From: an uncultured archaeon
GTDB taxonomy: Archaea; Asgardarchaeota; Thorarchaeia; Thorarchaeales; Thorarchaeaceae
DNA length: 64,000 nt
Reading direction: 5' to 3'
Assembly (NCBI GenBank): GCA_964631415.1
Contig: CAZVZC010000002.1
Span: 79,362 to 143,361, forward strand
The notes under the pieces were generated by a model. It searched no databases. It worked only from the letters and a program-made list of their open reading frames with translations, and had not been told where the DNA came from. Both the position numbers and the translations under genes were made by a program. Positions within the stretch are counted from its first letter, which is position 1; each line of letters begins with the position of its first letter. Of this stretch, positions 11,189 through 29,532 are shown in pieces.

Positions 11189-12076
11189 TCATGCACTCGA
11201 AAGGTCGCGCTTAAGGAAAAGTCGCACAACCTCCAGTGCCAAGTCCTTGGATGAGGCAGCAACGAAGGCCATTCTCTGCTGCATGTCTATCGGGAGCCTG
11301 AGTCTTTTGCCAAGCATGTCGACAACATAGCCTTGGCCCTCTACCACCATGTGGGTTCCAGACACATGGACTATAGGTAGTACTCTCCGAAGGTCAGCCA
11401 TCGCATCCAAGGCGCCAGTTGCGGTCCAGCAGAGATCGAGCAGGTTGCTGCCACTCCTGCGTATATCCTTCGCTGAAGATATCACCCTCCGTGAGCCCGA
11501 TGCGAAGTCGTCATGCCATGGAGCTTTTGTGTCGTAGGAAATGACTGCCTGTGCAAGAGGCTTCGGAGTTGCCACTCTGGCCGGCTTGCCGTTCCTCTGG
11601 AGACCCTTTCCTCTCTGTGCAACATAGGTCTCGTTCGTGAAATATGACTCGATAACACTGATCTCAATGTTGTCTGTGGTCATTCTTTCGGAAAATGGCA
11701 CTACGGAGATACCGCCAGAACACAAGGGTATGCCGCGCTCAAGATTGGCAGAACCGTCGACAGGGTCTACAATCGCGAGGTATTCTGGTTGTCTGCCCGA
11801 GTCAATCAGGCCGCGTTCCTCGGTCACAATCATGAATGACGTGCCTGATTCATCCAGCACTCTGACAATCTCATCTTCAGACACTCTGTCTGCTAACAGT
11901 GTCTGGTCACCAAAAGGGTTCATTGTCCCGGTGGTTTCCGACCTGCGAGACAGGTTGTCGACGACCGCTCTGCGTGCCGACAGCAGTGCATTCTTCAGGA
12001 TTCGGACGAGTGTCAATCTGATACCTCCGGTGCTCTGCGTGCGCTGTGGCGTTGTCAGCCACTCAGCGAAGCTCAA
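11189..12076 (-). CDS. Inositol monophosphatase / FBPase family protein
   Basis: VTEERG, IVDPVDGSAN, RRSGS..LDLCWTATGALD. Confidence 0.88.
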   Translation of the reverse strand: MSFAEWLTTPQRTQSTGGIRLTLVRILKNALLSARRAVVDNLSRRSETTGTMNPFGDQTLLADRVSEDEIVRVLDESGTSFMIVTEERGLIDSGRQPEYLAIVDPVDGSANLERGIPLCSGGISVVPFSERMTTDNIEISVIESYFTNETYVAQRGKGLQRNGKPARVATPKPLAQAVISYDTKAPWHDDFASGSRRVISSAKDIRRSGSNLLDLCWTATGALDAMADLRRVLPIVHVSGTHMVVEGQGYVVDMLGKRLRLPIDMQQRMAFVAASSKDLALEVVRLFLKRDLSSA

Positions 12077-12131
12077 ATCCTTTAAATGTGTCAGGGTAGG
12101 AGTTCATTCGATAAGGGCAATACCGGTGAAG

Positions 12132-12794
12132 ATGATGGGCTTCCTAAGCGGTAAGAAGAAAGTCGATGCCGAACGGGGAATCCTCGAGATCAAGGGCACC
12201 ATGAATGCAATGACGCTGAGGATTCGAAGACTTGAGACACGGATGGGTGAAGAGAGGAAATCCGCAAAGGAGGCGATGGCGGAGGGCGACAGGTCAGCGG
12301 CGAGATCGCACCTTTCGATTGTGACTGACCTAGAAACCAGAAGAGGAAGATACCACCAGCAATACCTCACTTTGGAGACCGCGCTCCTGAACATCGAGGA
12401 AGCGAAGGACCAGACAGAGGTTCTGAGAGCATTCAAGACAGCCAACAATGCTTTGACACAAGCGAGGGCTATGCTCAGCCCTGTTGAAATCCAGGCACAG
12501 CTGGAAAGGCTGTCTCAGTCATTTGAGCAGATCTCAATCGCCGGCGAACTCCTGTCAGAGGATCTATCAACGACAGGCAGCACTGTTGAGATGGACGAGA
12601 AGGTCGAACGCGAACTGCAGGCTATGGAGGCTGAGATACTGCTTGAGAAGGAGGGAGTGCTTCCACCTCTTCGGGCAGAGAGAGGAAAACAGCCGGCCGC
12701 AAAGAAGACTCCCGAGGAAAAGCGCGTTGACGAGATGCTGGCTGACCTTGAGAGAGAGGCTAAGGAAGAGAGGGAAAAAGAGGCTCAAGGATAG
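12132..12794 (+). CDS. Snf7-family ESCRT-III subunit (Vps20/32/60-like)
   Basis: MGFLSGKKK N-terminus, basic helical hairpin (AKEAMAEGDRSAAR), LETALLNIEEA..EVLRAFKTANNAL, acidic C-half, VLPPL tail; true start 12132/12135, not 11637. Confidence 0.88.
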   Translation: MMGFLSGKKKVDAERGILEIKGTMNAMTLRIRRLETRMGEERKSAKEAMAEGDRSAARSHLSIVTDLETRRGRYHQQYLTLETALLNIEEAKDQTEVLRAFKTANNALTQARAMLSPVEIQAQLERLSQSFEQISIAGELLSEDLSTTGSTVEMDEKVERELQAMEAEILLEKEGVLPPLRAERGKQPAAKKTPEEKRVDEMLADLEREAKEEREKEAQG

Positions 12795-13698: not shown

Positions 13699-14877
13699 CT
13701 AGCCCGTCAAGGCTCTCCCGTTATGGCGATATCTGTTGCCTGAGCCAGTGTTCAGCATCACTACGGTTTCATCACGGTCGATGGCTGCTGATTGGACCAA
13801 TTCCTTCAGACCGGCCAGACCAATGGCAGCCTCAGGGCAGATGTCGAGCCCTTCCATGCGCGCAGCCCCCAACTCCATGAGCCTAATCTCCTTGTCAGGG
13901 ACTGACACTGCAGACCCGTGCGAAGACCGAATTGCGTCCAAGATGAGCTTCCCCGCAAAAGGCCGGGGCACCCTTAGTCCAAGTGCTTGAGTGTTGCATC
14001 CAGACCAAGGCTCAAGATCATCAGACCTGCCATGAATTGCTTCTACTATGGGCGCGCACCCCTCACTCTGAACCGCATACATGCGAGGTCTGCCAGACCC
14101 CACCAGTCCAATCTCCTCAAGCTCTTCCATCGCTTTCCAGATCCCGATGAGTGCTGTGCCGCCACCGGTGGGGCATATCACGGCATCCGGGACTCTCCAT
14201 GCAAGCTGTTCGGAGATCTCGAAGCCTAGCGTCTTCTTTCCCTCAATACGATAGGGCTCCTTGGTGGTGGATAGGTCGGTCCAATCTCCACCCGAGGTCT
14301 TCATCTTCGCCGAACAGTCTGCGATGGTACCTTTCACCTCAGTCGTTTCTGCCCCGTACAGACTGCACTCGTCAAAGAAAGAAGACGGAGTGTCAGCAGG
14401 CATGAACACATGCGCCTTAACACCAGCAGCTGCGCAGTAGGCACTCATCGATACTGCTGCATTGCCTGCTGATGGCAGAGCAAATGACTGTGTTCCCAGT
14501 TCAACGTGTTTCGACACAGCAGCACAAAGCCCCCTGTCCTTGAACGAGGAGGTGGGGTTTCGCGATTCATCCTTTATCATTAGGCTCCTGAGTCCAAGCT
14601 CTGTCTGCAGCCTTCTAGTTCGTATCAAAGGCGTCCAACCCTCGCCTAGGCTGACAATGGAGGACTCGGAGTGGACCGGCAGCAGTTCCGAGTAACGCCA
14701 CATGGTTGACACAGCGGATGGGAAACCCGCTGATGACACTAGTTCCCTAACATGCACCGTGTCGTATCTGGCGAACAAAGGTGAACCACAAGAACAGTAT
14801 GACACAGTCTTGCTTTCTTGATACTTGCGTCCGCAAGCTGGACACTGGAGTCCTATGAAACACGAGGCCGATCGCAT
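13699..14877 (-). CDS. thrC: Threonine synthase
   Basis: N-terminal CxxC, SLGEGWTPL, NPTSSFKDRG (PLP Lys), PSAGNA, EGKKT, PTGGG, NTGSG. Confidence 0.9.
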   Translation of the reverse strand: MRSASCFIGLQCPACGRKYQESKTVSYCSCGSPLFARYDTVHVRELVSSAGFPSAVSTMWRYSELLPVHSESSIVSLGEGWTPLIRTRRLQTELGLRSLMIKDESRNPTSSFKDRGLCAAVSKHVELGTQSFALPSAGNAAVSMSAYCAAAGVKAHVFMPADTPSSFFDECSLYGAETTEVKGTIADCSAKMKTSGGDWTDLSTTKEPYRIEGKKTLGFEISEQLAWRVPDAVICPTGGGTALIGIWKAMEELEEIGLVGSGRPRMYAVQSEGCAPIVEAIHGRSDDLEPWSGCNTQALGLRVPRPFAGKLILDAIRSSHGSAVSVPDKEIRLMELGAARMEGLDICPEAAIGLAGLKELVQSAAIDRDETVVMLNTGSGNRYRHNGRALTG

Positions 14878-14950: not shown

Positions 14951-16144
14951 GTGCCCTTGACTGAGTTGGGAAGACCAGTAATGCCCTTCGCCGCTATTGT
15001 CGGAATGGAGAAGCTGAAACTGGCTCTCATGCTGAACGGAGTCAACCCCAAGATTGGGGGTGTGCTCATCTCAGGACCCAAAGGCACCGGTAAGACGACT
15101 GCGGTCAGGGCACTCGCGGATCTACTGCCAGACGTGGAAGCTGTGGAAGACTGCCGTTTCGGCTGTAACCCTTCAAGTGAGTCATTGTGTCCTGAGTGCA
15201 AGAAAAGCAGCGAACAAGGCGAGGAGCTCAAGAGCCTGAGAAGGAAGATGCGAGTAGTCAACCTTCCCTTGTCCACAACCGAAGACCGACTCATTGGTGC
15301 TCTCGATATAGAGCGAGTTCTGAAGGACGGCATTCAGGCGCTGAAACCGGGCATACTGGCTGAGGCGAATCAGAACATACTCTATGTGGATGAGGTGAAT
15401 CTCCTTCCTGACCATCTGGTCGATGATCTGCTTGATGCGGCCGCCACGAAAGTGAACGTGATCGAAAGGGAGGGGGTTTCAGTCTCGCATCCCTCAGACT
15501 TCGTCTTGGTTGGCACCATGAACCCCGAGGAGGGTGAACTGCGACCGCAACTCCTTGACAGATTCCCCCTTCACGTTGAAGTTGGCACCGGGCTGTCTGT
15601 CGACCAGAGGATGGAACTCGTCAGAAGGAACCTCGCATTTGAGAGAGACCCCGCAGCATTCAGAGAACAGTGGGCTGAGGAACAATCCCTACTGAGGGGG
15701 AAGATTGTCACTGCTAGGGAACTTCTAGAGCATGTCGTTCTCCCTGAGGCCGGACTCAGAGCGATTGCGATGGCATGTGACGCGCTGGAGGTTGACGGCG
15801 TTAGGCCGGACATAATCATCAGCAAGACCTCCATCACCAATGCGGCCTTCGATGGGCGAAAGGAGGTTTCCTTGGACGACCTGAAGCTTGCAGCACAGCT
15901 CGCACTCAGTCATAGGACAAGGAGAGGCGGACTGCTCGAACCTCCATCGTCAGAGGAGATTGACCGGGCGATTACAAGAGCTGTAGACGTCACAAGGAAA
16001 GAAGACAAGCGGGCATCTCCGTCGGAGGCTCCTGCAGAGCCCGGGGAAAAACCGGAAAGGCGAGCCAAAGGAGTGTTCGGTCGACAAGCAGGAATGGCTA
16101 AGGCCGGCAGCGACGACGCAAAAAAAAAGATCCTCGGCACATAA
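14951..16144 (+). CDS. ChlI/BchI-like AAA+ ATPase (chelatase ATPase subunit family)
   Basis: [15 protein letters not shown] (Walker A), LYVDEVNLL (Walker B), [18 protein letters not shown]; ends just after an A9 run. Confidence 0.92.
16120..16129 (+). other. Putative -1 programmed frameshift / transcriptional slippage site (A9G, contains A_AAA_AAG)
   Basis: GCA AAA AAA AAG in the ChlI frame; the -1 frame AAA GAT CCT CGG CAC ATA ATG is open into the vWA ORF. Confidence 0.7.
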
Positions 16145-17622
16145 TGGCGCCACGAGGTAATCCCTTCAAGGGAACCATCTGCGCAATCATGTTGGTAGTG
16201 GCGACCACGTATTTTGCCTGGGTGTTCTTTAGTCCCGTCAACACTTATTTCGGACAACGGCCAGGCGTGCTTCCATCCCTGCCAGTCATTCTCGTAGACA
16301 CATTGGTGTATGCGCCCATCATGTATCTGGTAGTCCGTAGATGGCTGAGGACTATGATGAGAAGGAAGGGAGGTCTCGCGGCAGGTATCGACTTTGTCGA
16401 GCCAGGAAACGCCAGACCTGAACCGGGAGATCAGTGGGGACGAGCAACGCGACCGTACAGCCCCATGACACCGTCTAGAATCACAGGGTCCAAGTCTGAC
16501 ATACGCAGTACGCCTGAAGGACTGGATATCGACTTCTACTCCACAATACCCGATTTCACAGCAGGCGAGGAACTCTTCGACCCTTCAGAACTGAGATCCA
16601 GAGCAACGAAACGAGCGTCCGTTGCATCGGGAGGTAGGCTGCGCATGCGTGTGAGTTCGAGAGCCATGGGTTCACTGAAGGCTTCCGAGAGCGCGCAGAG
16701 AGGCAGATTGCTACGTTCGAGAATACCGCGGGGTGAATGGTTCAGCCTTCACGTTCCGTCCACTCTTGTAGCAGCGTTGCTCAGGAGAGGCATGACCGGG
16801 GAAAAGCAGGGGACTCTAATCCAGCGGGGAGACCTGAGGGAGAAGGTGTTCTCCGGAAGAGCACCCCTGACGATCATCTTGGTCATCGATGTCAGCCTGT
16901 CGATGAAGGGCAGCATGAGCGAGGTTCGGAAGATAGTGAACAGGATAGAACAAGAAACACGGGGCTCCAGAGATCGGGCAGGGATAGTAGCTTTCAAAGA
17001 CAGTGGCGCTGTCGAGGTTCAGGCGCCGACGTCAAACTGGAACAGAATCTACAGAGCGCTTGCTGGTCTTAGGATCTCAGGGTTGACACCATTAGCCCAG
17101 GCACTGATGAAAGCTCTGGATACGATAAAGCGAGAGAGGATGAGGAATAACAGCATCGAGCCCCTAGTAGTGCTCATATCAGACTTCGCCCCGAACATAC
17201 CTCTGGCGCGGCCATTAGATGGAAGTGCGACCATATACTCACCTGTAGAAGACATGGTCAGAGCTGCCAGACTTCTTCGAAGAGAGAGAGTGCGACTAGT
17301 CGCCGTCAACGTTGACATACAGGAATCGACATGGTCAAGGTTTCTTAAGAGGCCCTATCACGAGGCTGTGGAGCTGGCCGCAATGCTCCGGGCAAGAAAG
17401 GAGGGCTTGGCTGATCCTGTGGAAGCCGTTCTGGCTGTTCCAGAGTTCCGCAAGTCCTTTGGTGCATACCTTGTTGCCAAAGTCGGTGGCGGGAAGGCAT
17501 TCCTTTCAAGCGAACTCACCGCTAAGAGGTCAGTCTTGGGCACCTTTCTGAGTGCAACCAGCAGCCAGACGCGACACAAACCTGAAGATTTGCGCAAGGC
17601 CGAGTCATATATCGCACGGTAG
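16144..17622 (+). CDS. ChlD C-terminal-like vWA protein with two N-terminal TM helices
   Basis: IQRGDLREKVF..LTIILVIDVSLSM (MIDAS), GLTPLAQAL, VLISD; two hydrophobic helices in the first ~65 aa; TAATG overlap with the upstream gene. Confidence 0.85.
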   Translation: MAPRGNPFKGTICAIMLVVATTYFAWVFFSPVNTYFGQRPGVLPSLPVILVDTLVYAPIMYLVVRRWLRTMMRRKGGLAAGIDFVEPGNARPEPGDQWGRATRPYSPMTPSRITGSKSDIRSTPEGLDIDFYSTIPDFTAGEELFDPSELRSRATKRASVASGGRLRMRVSSRAMGSLKASESAQRGRLLRSRIPRGEWFSLHVPSTLVAALLRRGMTGEKQGTLIQRGDLREKVFSGRAPLTIILVIDVSLSMKGSMSEVRKIVNRIEQETRGSRDRAGIVAFKDSGAVEVQAPTSNWNRIYRALAGLRISGLTPLAQALMKALDTIKRERMRNNSIEPLVVLISDFAPNIPLARPLDGSATIYSPVEDMVRAARLLRRERVRLVAVNVDIQESTWSRFLKRPYHEAVELAAMLRARKEGLADPVEAVLAVPEFRKSFGAYLVAKVGGGKAFLSSELTAKRSVLGTFLSATSSQTRHKPEDLRKAESYIAR

Positions 17623-17835
17623 TCACCAATTCCATATCCTTGGTGGGACTGACATCGCGATTGTTTTATCAGGATGGTAGAACACCCAGACAGAGGCGCA
17701 CTCAGCCCGACACTTGCCTGGTGTCATAGTGAGTGAGGAGAGCCCAGAGCGGGTTTTCGATGAATCCACTTTTCATGCATCATGGCACAGGGCTGGTGCG
17801 CCCCTCGCAGAAGACCAAGTAAGGAGTCGCTTCAG

Positions 17836-18894
17836 TTGATACATGGTAAGCTCCCCTCAGACGTGCTAGAACGCCTGGTGTTCAATCACCTTGGCAAGAC
17901 AGACCCGGACGTAATACTCGGACCCGGCACGGGCAGAGACGCCGCACTGTTGCGCGTTGGGGACATGGTCCTTGTCGCGTCCACTGATCCGATTACGGGC
18001 TCCATAGAGGACGTCGGCTGGCTCTCGGTACACGTGAACGCAAATGATGTGGCTACCTTTGGAGTGGCTCCGAGTTGGTTCTTCCTGTCAATCATGCTAC
18101 CATCAGGCAGTCAGGCGTCATCCGTCGGACGCATAATGGAGCAGGTTGATGAAGCGGCGAGGTTTCTGAACGTATCTGTGGCAGGAGGACACACAGAGGT
18201 GACCCCGGGCATTGACAGACCAATCGTGGCGGGTTTCATGTTAGGCCTCGCGAAAGAGGGCGAGTATGTGATGCCGGCGGGGGGCCGAGCAGGTGACTCG
18301 ATAATCCTTACAAAGACCATCGGTATTGAAGGCACTGCCATAGTTGCTGCTGAGGGAACTCCGCTGCTGGTGCAAAGACTCGGGCAGAAGGTCATCGACG
18401 ACGGGCGTAGTCTTCGGAGCCAGATTAGTGTGGTCAGAGAAGGAGTGGCCGCATTTCAGAGCGGGTACGTGACAGCCATGCATGACCCCACCGAGGGAGG
18501 CGTGGCTGGTGGAGTCCATGAGCTATGTGACTCAAGCAATGTTGGGTGCGAAATACACTCCGATCTGCTTCCTGTCCACCCATCGACTGAAGCATTGTGC
18601 CAAGAACTCGGCATCAATGTCCTTGAGCTCATTAGCAGCGGGTGCATGTTGATTACCTGTAGCCCGGAACACGCTGTCGATGTCATAGGTGCGGTTCAGT
18701 CAACAGGAGTCAGTGCCACGGTGATCGGTGCCCTTGTACACGACCCGACTCGTCGCGTCCTAATCTCGCGGAATGGTTCAGAAGAGCTGCCTCGGCCACA
18801 GACCGACGCACTGTGGGATGCACTCAGAAAGATAAAGGACGCACGAAGTCACGCAAGAGGTCGGCCAAGGAGTCATTCACGCCCTCGACAGTGA
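17836..18894 (+). CDS. AIR synthase-related (HypE/PurM-like) protein
   Basis: GKLP, GPGTGRDAA, STDPIT, NANDVA, GGHTEVT, MHDPTEGG, LISSG. Confidence 0.88.
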   Translation: MIHGKLPSDVLERLVFNHLGKTDPDVILGPGTGRDAALLRVGDMVLVASTDPITGSIEDVGWLSVHVNANDVATFGVAPSWFFLSIMLPSGSQASSVGRIMEQVDEAARFLNVSVAGGHTEVTPGIDRPIVAGFMLGLAKEGEYVMPAGGRAGDSIILTKTIGIEGTAIVAAEGTPLLVQRLGQKVIDDGRSLRSQISVVREGVAAFQSGYVTAMHDPTEGGVAGGVHELCDSSNVGCEIHSDLLPVHPSTEALCQELGINVLELISSGCMLITCSPEHAVDVIGAVQSTGVSATVIGALVHDPTRRVLISRNGSEELPRPQTDALWDALRKIKDARSHARGRPRSHSRPRQ

Positions 18895-27657: not shown

Positions 27658-27697
27658 AAAAAAAAAGAAACAAAGAAGGGGACTGAAGTCCCCTTCT
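27658..27697 (-). terminator. Hairpin plus U tract downstream of OppA-2
   Basis: Perfect AGAAGGGGAC-TGAA-GTCCCCTTCT stem followed on the minus strand by a long U run. Confidence 0.75.
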
Positions 27698-27705
27698 GCA
27701 CTAGT

Positions 27706-29532
27706 CTACTTCTGCCTCAGAAGGATGTATCCACCAACGAGGATGACTACAGCTGCACCAACTGCACCTGCAACAACAGCAAGTGTGAAGTTGGCCGGCG
27801 TTGTGGTGGTTGTCGTTATGGTTGTGGTTGGTGTCCTGTCCAGACCGTAGAAGTAGTTCGGGTTCCAACTCTCCTCACAGAACTCGCCTGCGATGTACTC
27901 AGACACGTTGAACGGTCCTGAGGTCACCATTTCCTGAGTTGGAGGCTGTGGGTTCCATGTGTTCCAGTTGGCTGCGCCAATCGCCTCGAATACGTGCTTC
28001 GGAATGATAGGCTTGTAGGCAACTGTGTGCAGGTGCCAGTATGACACGGTAGCGAACTCGACCACAAGTTGGTAGGTGGTTGTCGAATACGCTGCTGTCA
28101 TATCGGTCAGATCTGCACCATATGGATTACCTGGTGCCTCACGGAAGAAGTTCAGGGAGAACGCTACATCTTCAGCTGTCAGAGGCACACCATCAGTCCA
28201 GGTTGCATTCTGGAGGATATTGAATGTGAACCTAGTGTGACCTGCCGGCACAGCCGGATTGTCGGTGTGAGTCTCGGCAACATACGACTCAGCCAGCCAG
28301 TTCACGTCAACACCCTGTGAGTCCTGGATGATCAGACTGTCGTATAGCTGGTTGAGCACGTTCATGGTGTATGCTGATGAGCTCGCCATGAAGTTGAACG
28401 TGTCAAGGTCCAACGGGTTGCTCCATCGGAATGTCCCTCCAAACGGACCACCTTGAGAATCCTTCAGGTTTACCAAGTAGTTGGTCCACCATCCGGGCAC
28501 ACCAGCGTTGACGTCGTTGACGAAACCTTCGAACTTGTCAGTCCTGTACGCTGAGAGCAGAACGTTCTCGTAGCAGATGATTTGAGGGCACTCATAGACC
28601 CAGACCTTCTGCATCTCTATTGCAGCTTCGTAGACGTCGTCGTAGTCTGTCGAGTGAAGCAGCTGGTCCCTCCATGCGTCATAGGAGGAGTTGGCCCAGC
28701 AGGGGAAGTTCCAGTATGGTTCGTGGGCGTACTCAGACCAGAACTCGTACCCAAGCCAGTCAACGTCCATGTTGGTAAAGCTTGCACCGAGGAATACGAT
28801 GTCGAAGTCGCCGTGGAAGTAGAGACGGTTCAGGTACTCGTAGAAGTCAGTTGGCTCGGACGTTGCTTGGACGTGTAGAGCGACTAATGCCTGAGCAACT
28901 TTCTGGCCAACCTCAATGGCTATGGGTGAGGACGAAGCACACTCGACAAGGACATCAAAGTCGTCGCCGTGAGGTCCCTCACGGATGGTGTCGTTGTCAA
29001 CGTCAAGGAAATAGGCTGCGTCCAGCAGCTGGTTGCCCTTGGCGACATTCGCCTCATAGTAGGTGTAGGGCAGAAGACCCTCAATTGAGAATGGGTTCAC
29101 CTGTGGCACACAGGAGTCCTGTGGCGAGGATAGACCATCCCATACCTGATCCGATATCGCTTCCTTGTCAAGAGCAAAAGCGAGTGCTCTCCTGAAGGAC
29201 GTGTAGTTGAATGGATACTTGTCGGTCTTGATCACGACGTAGCCGTACCCATTCCTGAGTACGTTCACTACGTCGATGCTCTCTGCCGCCTGTAGAGCTG
29301 GCAGATATGTGGGATTGACCATCTCACCGATAAGGTCAATCTCGTTGTTCTGGAGCGCTAGCACCTCTTGGTCTTCTCCTGTTATGACCCTGAAGACAAG
29401 CTTGTCCACATACGGTCCACTCTTTGAACCGGACACTGTGAGTGAAGTCACAAACAGTGGTGAAACTGCCATCAGGGCAAAAGCAGCGACCAGCGAGATA
29501 GCAAGCACTCTCCTTGCACGACTGCTAAACAT
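27706..29532 (-). CDS. oppA: Peptide ABC transporter substrate-binding protein (family 5), paralogue 2
   Basis: Highly similar to 23916-25745; poly-Thr linker and TM anchor. Confidence 0.9.
   Translation of the reverse strand: MFSSRARRVLAISLVAAFALMAVSPLFVTSLTVSGSKSGPYVDKLVFRVITGEDQEVLALQNNEIDLIGEMVNPTYLPALQAAESIDVVNVLRNGYGYVVIKTDKYPFNYTSFRRALAFALDKEAISDQVWDGLSSPQDSCVPQVNPFSIEGLLPYTYYEANVAKGNQLLDAAYFLDVDNDTIREGPHGDDFDVLVECASSSPIAIEVGQKVAQALVALHVQATSEPTDFYEYLNRLYFHGDFDIVFLGASFTNMDVDWLGYEFWSEYAHEPYWNFPCWANSSYDAWRDQLLHSTDYDDVYEAAIEMQKVWVYECPQIICYENVLLSAYRTDKFEGFVNDVNAGVPGWWTNYLVNLKDSQGGPFGGTFRWSNPLDLDTFNFMASSSAYTMNVLNQLYDSLIIQDSQGVDVNWLAESYVAETHTDNPAVPAGHTRFTFNILQNATWTDGVPLTAEDVAFSLNFFREAPGNPYGADLTDMTAAYSTTTYQLVVEFATVSYWHLHTVAYKPIIPKHVFEAIGAANWNTWNPQPPTQEMVTSGPFNVSEYIAGEFCEESWNPNYFYGLDRTPTTTITTTTTTPANFTLAVVAGAVGAAVVILVGGYILLRQK

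What the first reader, a model, noticed from the sequence alone, without database searches (positions are those of the whole stretch)
14951..17622. Probable programmed -1 frameshift joins the ChlI-like ATPase to the vWA ORF
Seen: A9G at 16120-16129 (A_AAA_AAG in the correct phase) lies five codons before the ChlI stop, after a flexible linker. The -1 frame is open into the vWA ORF, and a modest hairpin is possible at 16132-16157. Known: chlD genes with poly-A frameshift signals yield both a short ChlI-like and a long ChlD-like subunit. Inference: one locus makes a 397-aa ATPase and a ~890-aa AAA-vWA protein. TAATG translational coupling is the alternative explanation.
Basis: partly seen in the sequence, partly recalled or inferred. 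Interest (0 to 1): 0.8.

Follow-up and report, generated by a model that had tools for sequence, protein, structure and literature searches.

The report
Poly-A slippage site in chlD-like gene
A run of nine A's lets one gene of a Thorarchaeota (Asgard) archaeon make a short soluble ATPase and, after a one-base slip, a long membrane-anchored ATPase-plus-vWA protein; the site is real and kept across the whole family, but this trick is already published for chlD-type genes.

Summary
A9 lies at 16120-16128, followed by G. It reads GCA AAA AAA AAG in the frame of a 397-aa ChlI-like AAA+ ORF, four sense codons before its TAA. The 492-aa vWA ORF lies in the -1 frame, which is open from 16102.

Comparative evidence shows programmed recoding:
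- Of 47 orthologous junctions from Thorarchaeaceae genomes (16 genera, 52-92% protein identity), 45 keep a run of 9-11 A's at this spot.
- In 42 of the 47 the vWA ORF is in the -1 frame.
- Most have no ATG/GTG/TTG before a conserved peptide that starts right after the run. Only this genome and its 92%-identical relative have the TAATG.
- In 11 of the 31 fully analysed loci the -1 frame opens inside the run itself.
- Three genomes carry one extra A and a single in-frame ORF of about 890 aa, as do more distant Asgard relatives.

Ribosomal -1 frameshifting and transcriptional slippage cannot be told apart here. No CobN/ChlH was found in 61 family genomes, so this is probably not a chelatase.

This is a new member of the published fs-chlD recoding class (Antonov 2013; Kuznetsov 2022). 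This scan has already reported the same device on other DNA, including Thorarchaeota.

The parts
14951..16144 (+). ORF1, zero frame: ChlI-type AAA+ ATPase, 397 aa (GTG start; ATG at 14981 is a possible alternative). Walker A 15074-15097, Cys4 insert 15152-15199, Walker B 15377-15406, Arg-finger region 15542-15565. A low-complexity tail precedes the run.
   Evidence: TIGR02442 positions 2-347 (463 bits), TIGR02030 BchI-ChlI (401 bits), Pfam Mg_chelatase/AAA_5/AAA_lid_2.
16099..16101 (+). TAA that closes the -1 frame upstream. The -1 frame is open from 16102, only 18 nt before the run.
16120..16129 (+). Shift site: A9 followed by G. The heptamer A_AAA_AAG (16123-16129) is in phase.
   Evidence: a run of 9-11 A's in 45 of 47 orthologous junctions; mean column identity of the run 0.955 against 0.66 for the alignment.
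16132..16157 (+). It is present here but not conserved, so it is probably not a stimulator.
16142..16144 (+). TAA stop of the zero frame. It ends the short product four sense codons after the shift codon.
   Evidence: The stop lies 10-13 nt after the run in most relatives.
16144..16146 (+). ATG overlapping the stop (TAATG). It is specific to this lineage, seen only here and in the 92%-identical L005/L034, so independent initiation is possible here but is not the conserved route.
16129..17622 (+). -1 frame part of the long product (497 codons from GAT at 16129, then TAG). The annotated ORF2 is 16144-17622, 492 aa.
   Evidence: TIGR02442 positions 403-616 (109 bits) and TIGR02031 BchD-ChlD 343-594. 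Codon periodicity in this frame starts directly after the run.
16171..16368 (+). Two hydrophobic helices (16171-16239 and 16279-16335) followed by the basic patch RRWLRTMMRRK (16336-16368). With KKK on the other flank, this is a predicted transmembrane hairpin with both flanks in the cytoplasm.
   Evidence: Hydropathy. Conserved in relatives, and also present in the in-frame Asgard homologues L038-L040. The topology is inferred.
16873..17328 (+). vWA domain with an intact MIDAS motif DxSxS (DVSLS, 16888-16902).
   Evidence: VWA_2 (2.3e-13) and VWA (1.6e-7).

Best explanation
This is one chlD-type gene interrupted by a programmed recoding site. Standard reading gives a 397-aa soluble ChlI-like AAA+ ATPase that stops four codons after the A-run. 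A fraction of expression changes to the -1 frame on the A9 run and gives an 890-aa protein. The change comes either from a ribosome slipping back one base on A_AAA_AAG or from RNA polymerase adding one A to the transcript. The long protein has the same AAA+ module, a two-helix membrane hairpin and a ChlD-type vWA/MIDAS domain.

Shown: the anatomy, the family-wide conservation of the run and the frame relation, coding selection in the -1 frame from the run onward, and the lack of a start codon in most relatives.

Inferred: that both products are made, their ratio, the membrane anchoring, and that the short and long forms assemble into a ChlI/ChlD-like two-ring AAA+ motor. Because no CobN/ChlH exists in the family, that motor probably acts on some membrane-associated target rather than inserting metal into a tetrapyrrole.

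My odds within this explanation: ribosomal -1 frameshifting or sliding about 45%, transcriptional slippage about 40%, and the remainder both contributing.
For: 1. TIGR02442, a single 641-position chlD-type model, is split across the two ORFs: positions 2-347 on ORF1 and 403-616 on ORF2.

2. Of 47 Thorarchaeaceae junctions, 42 have ORF2 in the -1 frame and 45 have a run of 9-11 A's at the same place, despite 52-76% protein identity.

3. In most loci the first ATG/GTG/TTG in the ORF2 frame is Met16/17, inside the first hydrophobic helix. The peptide (T/S)PxK(I/V)R(N/R)PRG(D/N)PIKGTICAI upstream of it is nevertheless conserved. Nucleotide identity by codon position is 0.67/0.75/0.40 from the run onward and 0.78/0.80/0.35 after the ORF1 stop.

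4. In 11 of the 31 loci analysed, the -1 frame is closed by a TAA made of a T plus the first two A's of the run. The shift must then happen within the last 7 A's plus about 12 nt.

5. Three family genomes with one extra A (G032, G014, G067) encode an uninterrupted ORF of about 890 aa. In the tree, G032 and G014 are each sister to a -1 genome (G067 was not included). More distant Asgard relatives are in-frame fusions of 642-888 aa, several with the hydrophobic hairpin.

6. A-runs are strongly avoided in this genome, and AAA is the minor Lys codon.

7. Precedent: Mg-chelatase fs-genes shift -1 on poly-A, with 10% at A7, 40% at A9 and 63% at A11 in E. coli reporters (PMC3711429). Fs-chlD genes also occur in genomes without cobN/chlH (PMC9227772).
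Against: - There are no expression data: no reads, transcripts or peptides for this organism.
- No conserved downstream RNA structure or Rfam element was found.
- This genome has an ATG overlapping the stop, so some ORF2 could start independently here.
- Met16/17 is conserved and could serve as an internal start.
- Distant Asgard genomes with in-frame fusions have no separate ChlI gene. The long form alone may therefore suffice, which weakens the argument that two subunits are needed.
- Five of the 47 junctions are not in the -1 state.
Confidence: 0.87

Rival explanations
1. These are two separate genes. ORF2 is translated on its own, either by termination-reinitiation at the overlapping TAATG (or at GTGA/ATAA in relatives) or from the conserved Met16/17. 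On this reading the A-run is merely a lysine patch.
For: TAATG is present in this window. Three relatives have GTG overlapping TGA, and three have the ORF1 stop overlapping Met16/17. Antonov 2013 saw some downstream initiation alongside frameshifting in certain constructs (PMC3711429).
Against: - Twenty-six of the 28 -1 loci in the first set lack the ATG, and most have no ATG/GTG/TTG before residue 16.
- The peptide between the run and Met16 is under coding selection in the ORF2 frame.
- A pure A run of 9 or more is kept even where AAA is almost never used for Lys.
- In-frame fusions exist.
Confidence: 0.05
2. The run is a DNA-level contingency tract (slipped-strand phase variation), or a fixed frameshift mutation, or an assembly error. 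On this reading the long protein is made only in cells whose genome carries the in-frame run length.
For: Run length varies among close relatives (A8 to A11). Three genomes are in frame and two are in the +1 relation. Each of the three exceptions placed in the tree (G032, G014, G003) sits next to a -1 sister. Poly-A is also slippery for DNA polymerases (PMC3711429).
Against: - Forty-two of 47 independent assemblies share the same -1 state. Length changes from A9 to A11 are compensated so that the -1 relation is kept.
- ORF2 shows no decay across 16 genera.
- The 'off' state still yields a complete ATPase, unlike typical contingency genes.
- Random sequencing errors cannot recur in 42 assemblies.
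Confidence: 0.06

Closest known systems
Frameshifted chlD genes (fs-chlD; the 'magnesium chelatase' recoding cluster): Antonov et al. 2013 (PMC3711429), Atkins et al. 2016 (PMC5009743), Antonov 2020 MBE (cited, not held here), Kuznetsov et al. 2022 (PMC9227772)
   Same: A ChlI-type AAA+ ORF is followed in the -1 frame by a ChlD-type vWA ORF. A poly-A / A_AAA_AAR run sits at the domain boundary and the zero-frame stop follows shortly after. In-frame fused homologues occur elsewhere. Archaeal members are known (Methanocaldococcus, Methanococcus), and members occur in genomes without cobN/chlH.
   Different: This clade is Asgard (Thorarchaeaceae). The long product carries a two-helix hydrophobic hairpin between the AAA+ and vWA parts, which the papers read here do not describe. 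No large subunit was found in any of 61 family genomes. The nearest relatives are in-frame Asgard fusions, so the site may have arisen independently of the methanogen and bacterial ones. That point was not tested.
dnaX gamma/tau: E. coli A_AAA_AAG -1 ribosomal frameshift, and Thermus thermophilus A9 transcriptional slippage (as summarised in PMC3711429)
   Same: The shift motif is the same (A_AAA_AAG inside A9). One AAA+ gene gives a short and a long product that share the ATPase module.
   Different: In dnaX the slip makes the short product and the standard frame makes the long one. Here the standard frame gives the short product. No SD-like or stem-loop stimulator conserved as in E. coli dnaX was found.
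Canonical ChlI/ChlD (BchI/BchD) and CobS/CobT motor of Mg- and Co-chelatases
   Same: The domain families are the same (TIGR02030, TIGR02031 and TIGR02442 hits), with intact Walker motifs and an intact MIDAS.
   Different: No ChlH/CobN partner was found. Scores are below the equivalog cut-offs. A membrane hairpin is predicted. There are no tetrapyrrole genes next to it: the neighbours are threonine synthase and an AIR-synthase-related gene.
Sulfolobus (Saccharolobus) solfataricus fucA1 -1 frameshift, the verified archaeal cellular case (PMC8211752, PMC8037382)
   Same: It is an archaeal gene split into two ORFs and joined by a -1 shift on an A-rich heptamer.
   Different: The protein family is different. 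In fucA1 only the joined product is functional, whereas here the unshifted product is a complete ATPase.

Membership tests
fs-chlD (frameshifted chlD / Mg-chelatase recoding cluster) | Upstream ORF is a ChlI-type AAA+ module with intact ATPase motifs | tested here: met
   TIGR02442 positions 2-347 (463 bits) and TIGR02030 (401 bits). Walker A GPKGTGKT, Walker [11 protein letters not shown] and RPQLLDRF are present.
fs-chlD (frameshifted chlD / Mg-chelatase recoding cluster) | Downstream ORF in another frame is the ChlD-type C-terminal vWA part | tested here: met
   TIGR02442 positions 403-616, TIGR02031 positions 343-594 and VWA_2. MIDAS DVSLS is present. ORF2 is in the -1 frame.
fs-chlD (frameshifted chlD / Mg-chelatase recoding cluster) | A-rich slippery run (A_AAA_AAR / poly-A) at the domain boundary, conserved among orthologues | tested here: met
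   a run of 9-11 A's in 45 of 47 junctions. An in-phase A_AAA_AAR is present in every run of 9 or more.
fs-chlD (frameshifted chlD / Mg-chelatase recoding cluster) | Homologues exist as uninterrupted fusions of the two parts | tested here: met
   G032, G014 and G067 (about 890 aa), P0003 (880 aa) and distant Asgard fusions of 642-888 aa.
fs-chlD (frameshifted chlD / Mg-chelatase recoding cluster) | Frameshifted product actually made (reporter assay or protein evidence) | not testable with these tools
   No expression data are available. The precedent is limited to E. coli reporters of other members (PMC3711429).
Mg- or Co-chelatase (ChlIDH / CobNST) motor subunits | A large ChlH/CobN subunit is encoded in the genome | tested here: not met
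   PF02514 was not found in the own genome (85% complete) or in any of 61 family genomes, 23 of them at least 90% complete. The controls gave hits.
Mg- or Co-chelatase (ChlIDH / CobNST) motor subunits | Scores above the curated equivalog cut-offs for BchI/ChlI, BchD/ChlD or the putative cobaltochelatase | tested here: not met
   463 bits against a cut-off of 779 (TIGR02442), 401 against 467 (TIGR02030), and 238 and 76 against 500 (TIGR02031).

The most novel reading that the evidence does not exclude
The slip acts as a localisation and stoichiometry switch in a non-chelatase machine. Unshifted expression gives soluble ChlI-like rings, and shifted expression gives membrane-anchored AAA+-vWA subunits that tether the motor to a membrane target. 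The shift would be made by the archaeal RNA polymerase stuttering on the A-run, which to my knowledge would be the first programmed transcriptional slippage described in an archaeal cellular gene, in the lineage closest to eukaryotes.
Probability: 0.25. Interest if true: 0.6.

Novelty: new member of a known kind. Interest (0 to 1): 0.4.

Why it matters
Verified recoding in archaeal cellular genes is rare; PMC8037382 lists only stop-codon readthrough and the fucA1 frameshift as unequivocal. This is a family-wide and very cleanly delimited candidate in Asgard archaea, so it is a good substrate for asking whether archaeal ribosomes or RNA polymerases slip on poly-A.

It also corrects annotation. 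The 'two genes' are one gene with two products. In most relatives the vWA ORF has no start of its own, so gene callers will truncate it.

The absence of any CobN/ChlH, together with the predicted membrane hairpin, indicates that the 'magnesium chelatase' names on these ORFs are misleading. Orphan ChlI/ChlD-type motors have an unknown, probably membrane-linked, role.

The principle itself is already published, so the gain is incremental.

Tried and rejected
- **Downstream stimulator.** RNAalifold on 31 junctions predicted no pairs. The window's own 101 nt fold only modestly better than shuffles (z = -2.15). I dropped the stimulatory structure.
- **Rfam.** A scan of 15700-16600 at E up to 1 found nothing.
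- **Functional link through neighbours.** The neighbours are threonine synthase (divergent) and an AIR-synthase-related gene below every NCBIfam cut-off. The synteny is conserved but gives no clear functional tie.
- **'Two subunits needed because no chlI gene exists.'** This is weakened because distant Asgard genomes with in-frame fusions also lack a separate ChlI gene.
- **Separating ribosomal from transcriptional slippage by phase or run length.** Any run of 9 contains an in-phase heptamer, so phase does not help. The exceptions point both ways. L024 (broken run plus an A7 next to the stop) favours the ribosome. G003 and G069 (+1 relation) favour RNA polymerase.
- **Search for longer relatives.** `search for homologous proteins` with 'longer' returned only one fused protein.
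- **Antonov 2020 (MBE).** The paper is not held.
- **Origin of the site.** I did not test whether it shares ancestry with the methanogen fs-chlD sites, because no methanogen sequences were fetched.
Full report
**Observation.** The window carries A9 at 16120-16128, followed by G.
- ORF1 (14951-16144, 397 aa) reads GCA AAA AAA AAG ATC CTC GGC ACA TAA. The dnaX-type heptamer A_AAA_AAG (16123-16129) is therefore in phase, and the stop follows four sense codons later.
- ORF2 (16144-17622, 492 aa) is in the -1 frame. That frame is open only from 16102, after a TAA at 16099-16101.
- A -1 shift joins ...DDAKKK to [10 protein letters not shown]... and gives 890 aa.

**What the two ORFs are.**
- ORF1 is a ChlI-type AAA+ ATPase with intact Walker A and B motifs and an intact arginine-finger region. 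It also has a Cys4 insert.
- ORF2 has two N-terminal hydrophobic helices followed by a basic patch, then a ChlD-type pre-vWA segment and a vWA domain with an intact DxSxS MIDAS.
- One NCBIfam model of a single chlD-type protein, TIGR02442 (641 positions), is covered by both ORFs. ORF1 matches positions 2-347 (463 bits) and ORF2 matches positions 403-616 (109 bits).
- The genome is a Thorarchaeota (Asgard) MAG. A 92%-identical locus lies in PRDI01000087.1, 'Candidatus Thorarchaeota archaeon OWC3'.

**Is the run more than chance?**
- The 2.16-Mb genome has only three A/T runs of 9 or more and twenty of 7 or more, against about 136 expected from base composition.
- This is the only such run inside a long ORF. 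The second one in the window (27658) is a T9 on the minus strand after a hairpin, which looks like a terminator.
- Outside the run, Lys is coded by AAA in only 39% of cases across the orthologues (576 of 1461). The figure is 0 of 27 in L032 and 2 of 28 in L010, yet the run stays pure A in both.

**Comparative test.** ORF2 orthologues occur in 52 of 61 genomes sampled from the same family, covering 15 of 16 genera at 52-92% identity. I examined 47 junctions.

| Configuration | Junctions | Run length |
|---|---|---|
| ORF2 in the -1 frame | 42 | mostly A9, some A10 or A11; L024 has a broken run plus an A7 against the stop |
| Single in-frame ORF of about 890 aa | 3 (G032, G014, G067) | one A more |
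| ORF2 in the +1 relation | 2 | G003 has A8; G069 lost one base just 5' of the run |

- In a quick ML tree of ORF2, each of the three exceptions included (G032, G014, G003) sits beside a -1 sister, with SH-aLRT support of 97-100. The -1 state with 9 or more A's occurs in all major clades, so it is ancestral to the family. G067 and G069 were not in the tree; each has -1 congeners in its genus.
- In the nucleotide alignment the run is the only long near-invariant block. Its mean column identity is 0.955, against 0.66 overall.

**Why this is recoding and not two coupled genes.**
- The TAATG is peculiar to this genome and its close relative. In most loci the ORF2 frame has no ATG, GTG or TTG before Met16/17, which lies inside the first hydrophobic helix.
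- The peptide (T/S)PxK(I/V)R(N/R)PRG(D/N)PIKGTICAI upstream of that Met is conserved. Nucleotide identity there shows coding periodicity in the ORF2 frame. By codon position it is 0.67/0.75/0.40 from the last A of the run to PRG, 0.78/0.80/0.35 after the ORF1 stop, and 0.76/0.89/0.40 further on.
- At the first codon after the run, the -1 frame keeps Thr through synonymous ACG/ACT/ACC. The zero frame changes between Arg, Leu, Pro and Ala at the same place.
- In 11 of the 31 loci, the -1 frame is closed by a TAA formed from a T plus the first two A's of the run. The frame change must then occur within the last seven A's plus the roughly 12 nt before the ORF1 stop.
- More distant Asgard homologues are uninterrupted fusions of 642-888 aa. 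Three of them (L038-L040) have hydrophobic segments in the same place.

**Mechanism.**
- I found no conserved stimulatory RNA structure. RNAalifold predicts no pairs. Rfam has no match.
- The signal therefore seems to be the run itself. This matches the published Mg-chelatase constructs, in which efficiency in E. coli rose with run length: A7 10%, A9 40%, A11 63% (PMC3711429).
- Runs longer than 7 A's are also the known substrate of transcriptional slippage, as with the A9 of Thermus dnaX (PMC3711429).
- Any run of 9 contains an in-phase A_AAA_AAR, so phase does not separate the two mechanisms.
- Retention of 9 or more A's when 7 would do for a ribosome, together with the two +1 variants (which a one-base deletion in the transcript would rescue), leans towards RNA polymerase. 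L024 has a broken run but an A7 directly before the stop, which leans towards the ribosome.
- I leave the mechanism open, at about 45% ribosomal, 40% transcriptional, and the rest both.
- In every frame other than ORF2's, a stop follows within 4-13 codons. Every non-productive event therefore still gives the short ATPase.

**Function.**
- No CobN/ChlH (PF02514) was found in the own genome (85% complete) or in any of 61 family genomes. The controls gave hits.
- The neighbours are threonine synthase and an unassigned AIR-synthase-related gene. This arrangement is conserved across the family but is not informative.
- The locus therefore fits the 'orphan' fs-chlD genes that Kuznetsov et al. 2022 describe in genomes without chlorophyll or B12 pathways, whose function is unknown (PMC9227772).
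- I infer, but have not shown, a ChlI/ChlD-like two-tier AAA+ motor whose long subunit is tethered to the membrane by the hairpin and presents a MIDAS domain to an unknown partner.
- The distant in-frame Asgard genomes have no separate ChlI gene. The short form is therefore an addition made by this family, not an ancestral requirement.

**Comparison with the known, and novelty.**
- Poly-A -1 recoding of 'magnesium chelatase'/chlD genes has been published since 2013, with archaeal members in Methanocaldococcus and Methanococcus (PMC3711429, PMC5009743, PMC8211752, PMC9227772).
- The library held no paper on Asgard or Thorarchaeota recoding of this gene.
- This scan has already reported the same device on other DNA: 29 notes in at least 28 genomes, including a followed-up Thorarchaeota case (e1-5544172) and another Asgard case (e1-5455056). 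My independent tests agree with those notes.
- This is a new member of a known kind. The membrane hairpin in the long product and the complete lack of a large subunit in the family are its particular features.

**Limits.**
- There are no reads, transcripts or peptides.
- Antonov 2020 was not available.
- The tree is the quick version.
- Common ancestry with the methanogen and bacterial sites was not tested.

Noticed in passing
window 27658-27666: This is the only other A9 in the window. On the minus strand it is a T9 directly after a GC hairpin (ggggacttcagtcccc), just downstream of the minus-strand ORF that ends at 27706. It looks like a terminator, not a recoding site.
   Followed up: partly
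whole genome G000 (window = C2:79362-143361): Homopolymer A/T runs are strongly depleted: 20 runs of 7 or more and 3 of 9 or more in 2.16 Mb, against about 136 and 7.6 expected from composition. The third run of 9 or more is a T9 at C26:176.
   Followed up: partly
window 15152-15199: There is a Cys4 (CxxGC...CxxC) insert inside the AAA+ module of ORF1. It is conserved in the Asgard homologues (CRFGCNP...C.EC) and is a possible zinc ribbon.
   Followed up: no
window 13699-14877 (-) and 17782-18894 (+): Threonine synthase (divergent) and an AIR-synthase-related gene flank the chlD-like gene in almost all family genomes. The AIR-synthase-related gene is HypE/ThiL/SelD-like but below every NCBIfam cut-off. 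The reason for this conserved synteny is not explained.
   Followed up: partly
L043 (G041:C14) about 1836-1842: A distant Asgard in-frame chlD-like gene changes frame inside the AAA+ module (GSLDM|EKAIREG) at GATATGAAAAAG, with no long homopolymer there. It is probably a one-base deletion or an assembly error.
   Followed up: partly
L024 (G026) and L022 (G012), junction region: Genus g10 has a second A7 directly against the ORF1 stop (CCAAAAAAATAA). In G026 the main run is broken (AAAAAGAAA), so the shift site may have moved 14 nt downstream in that genome.
   Followed up: partly
family genomes of genus g3: The gene was found in only 4 of 10 genomes of genus g3, and G029 keeps just a 70-residue remnant with two stops. 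This suggests loss of the gene in part of that genus.
   Followed up: no
window 11637-12794: An Snf7/ESCRT-III family ORF lies about 2 kb upstream, which is consistent with the Asgard origin.
   Followed up: no
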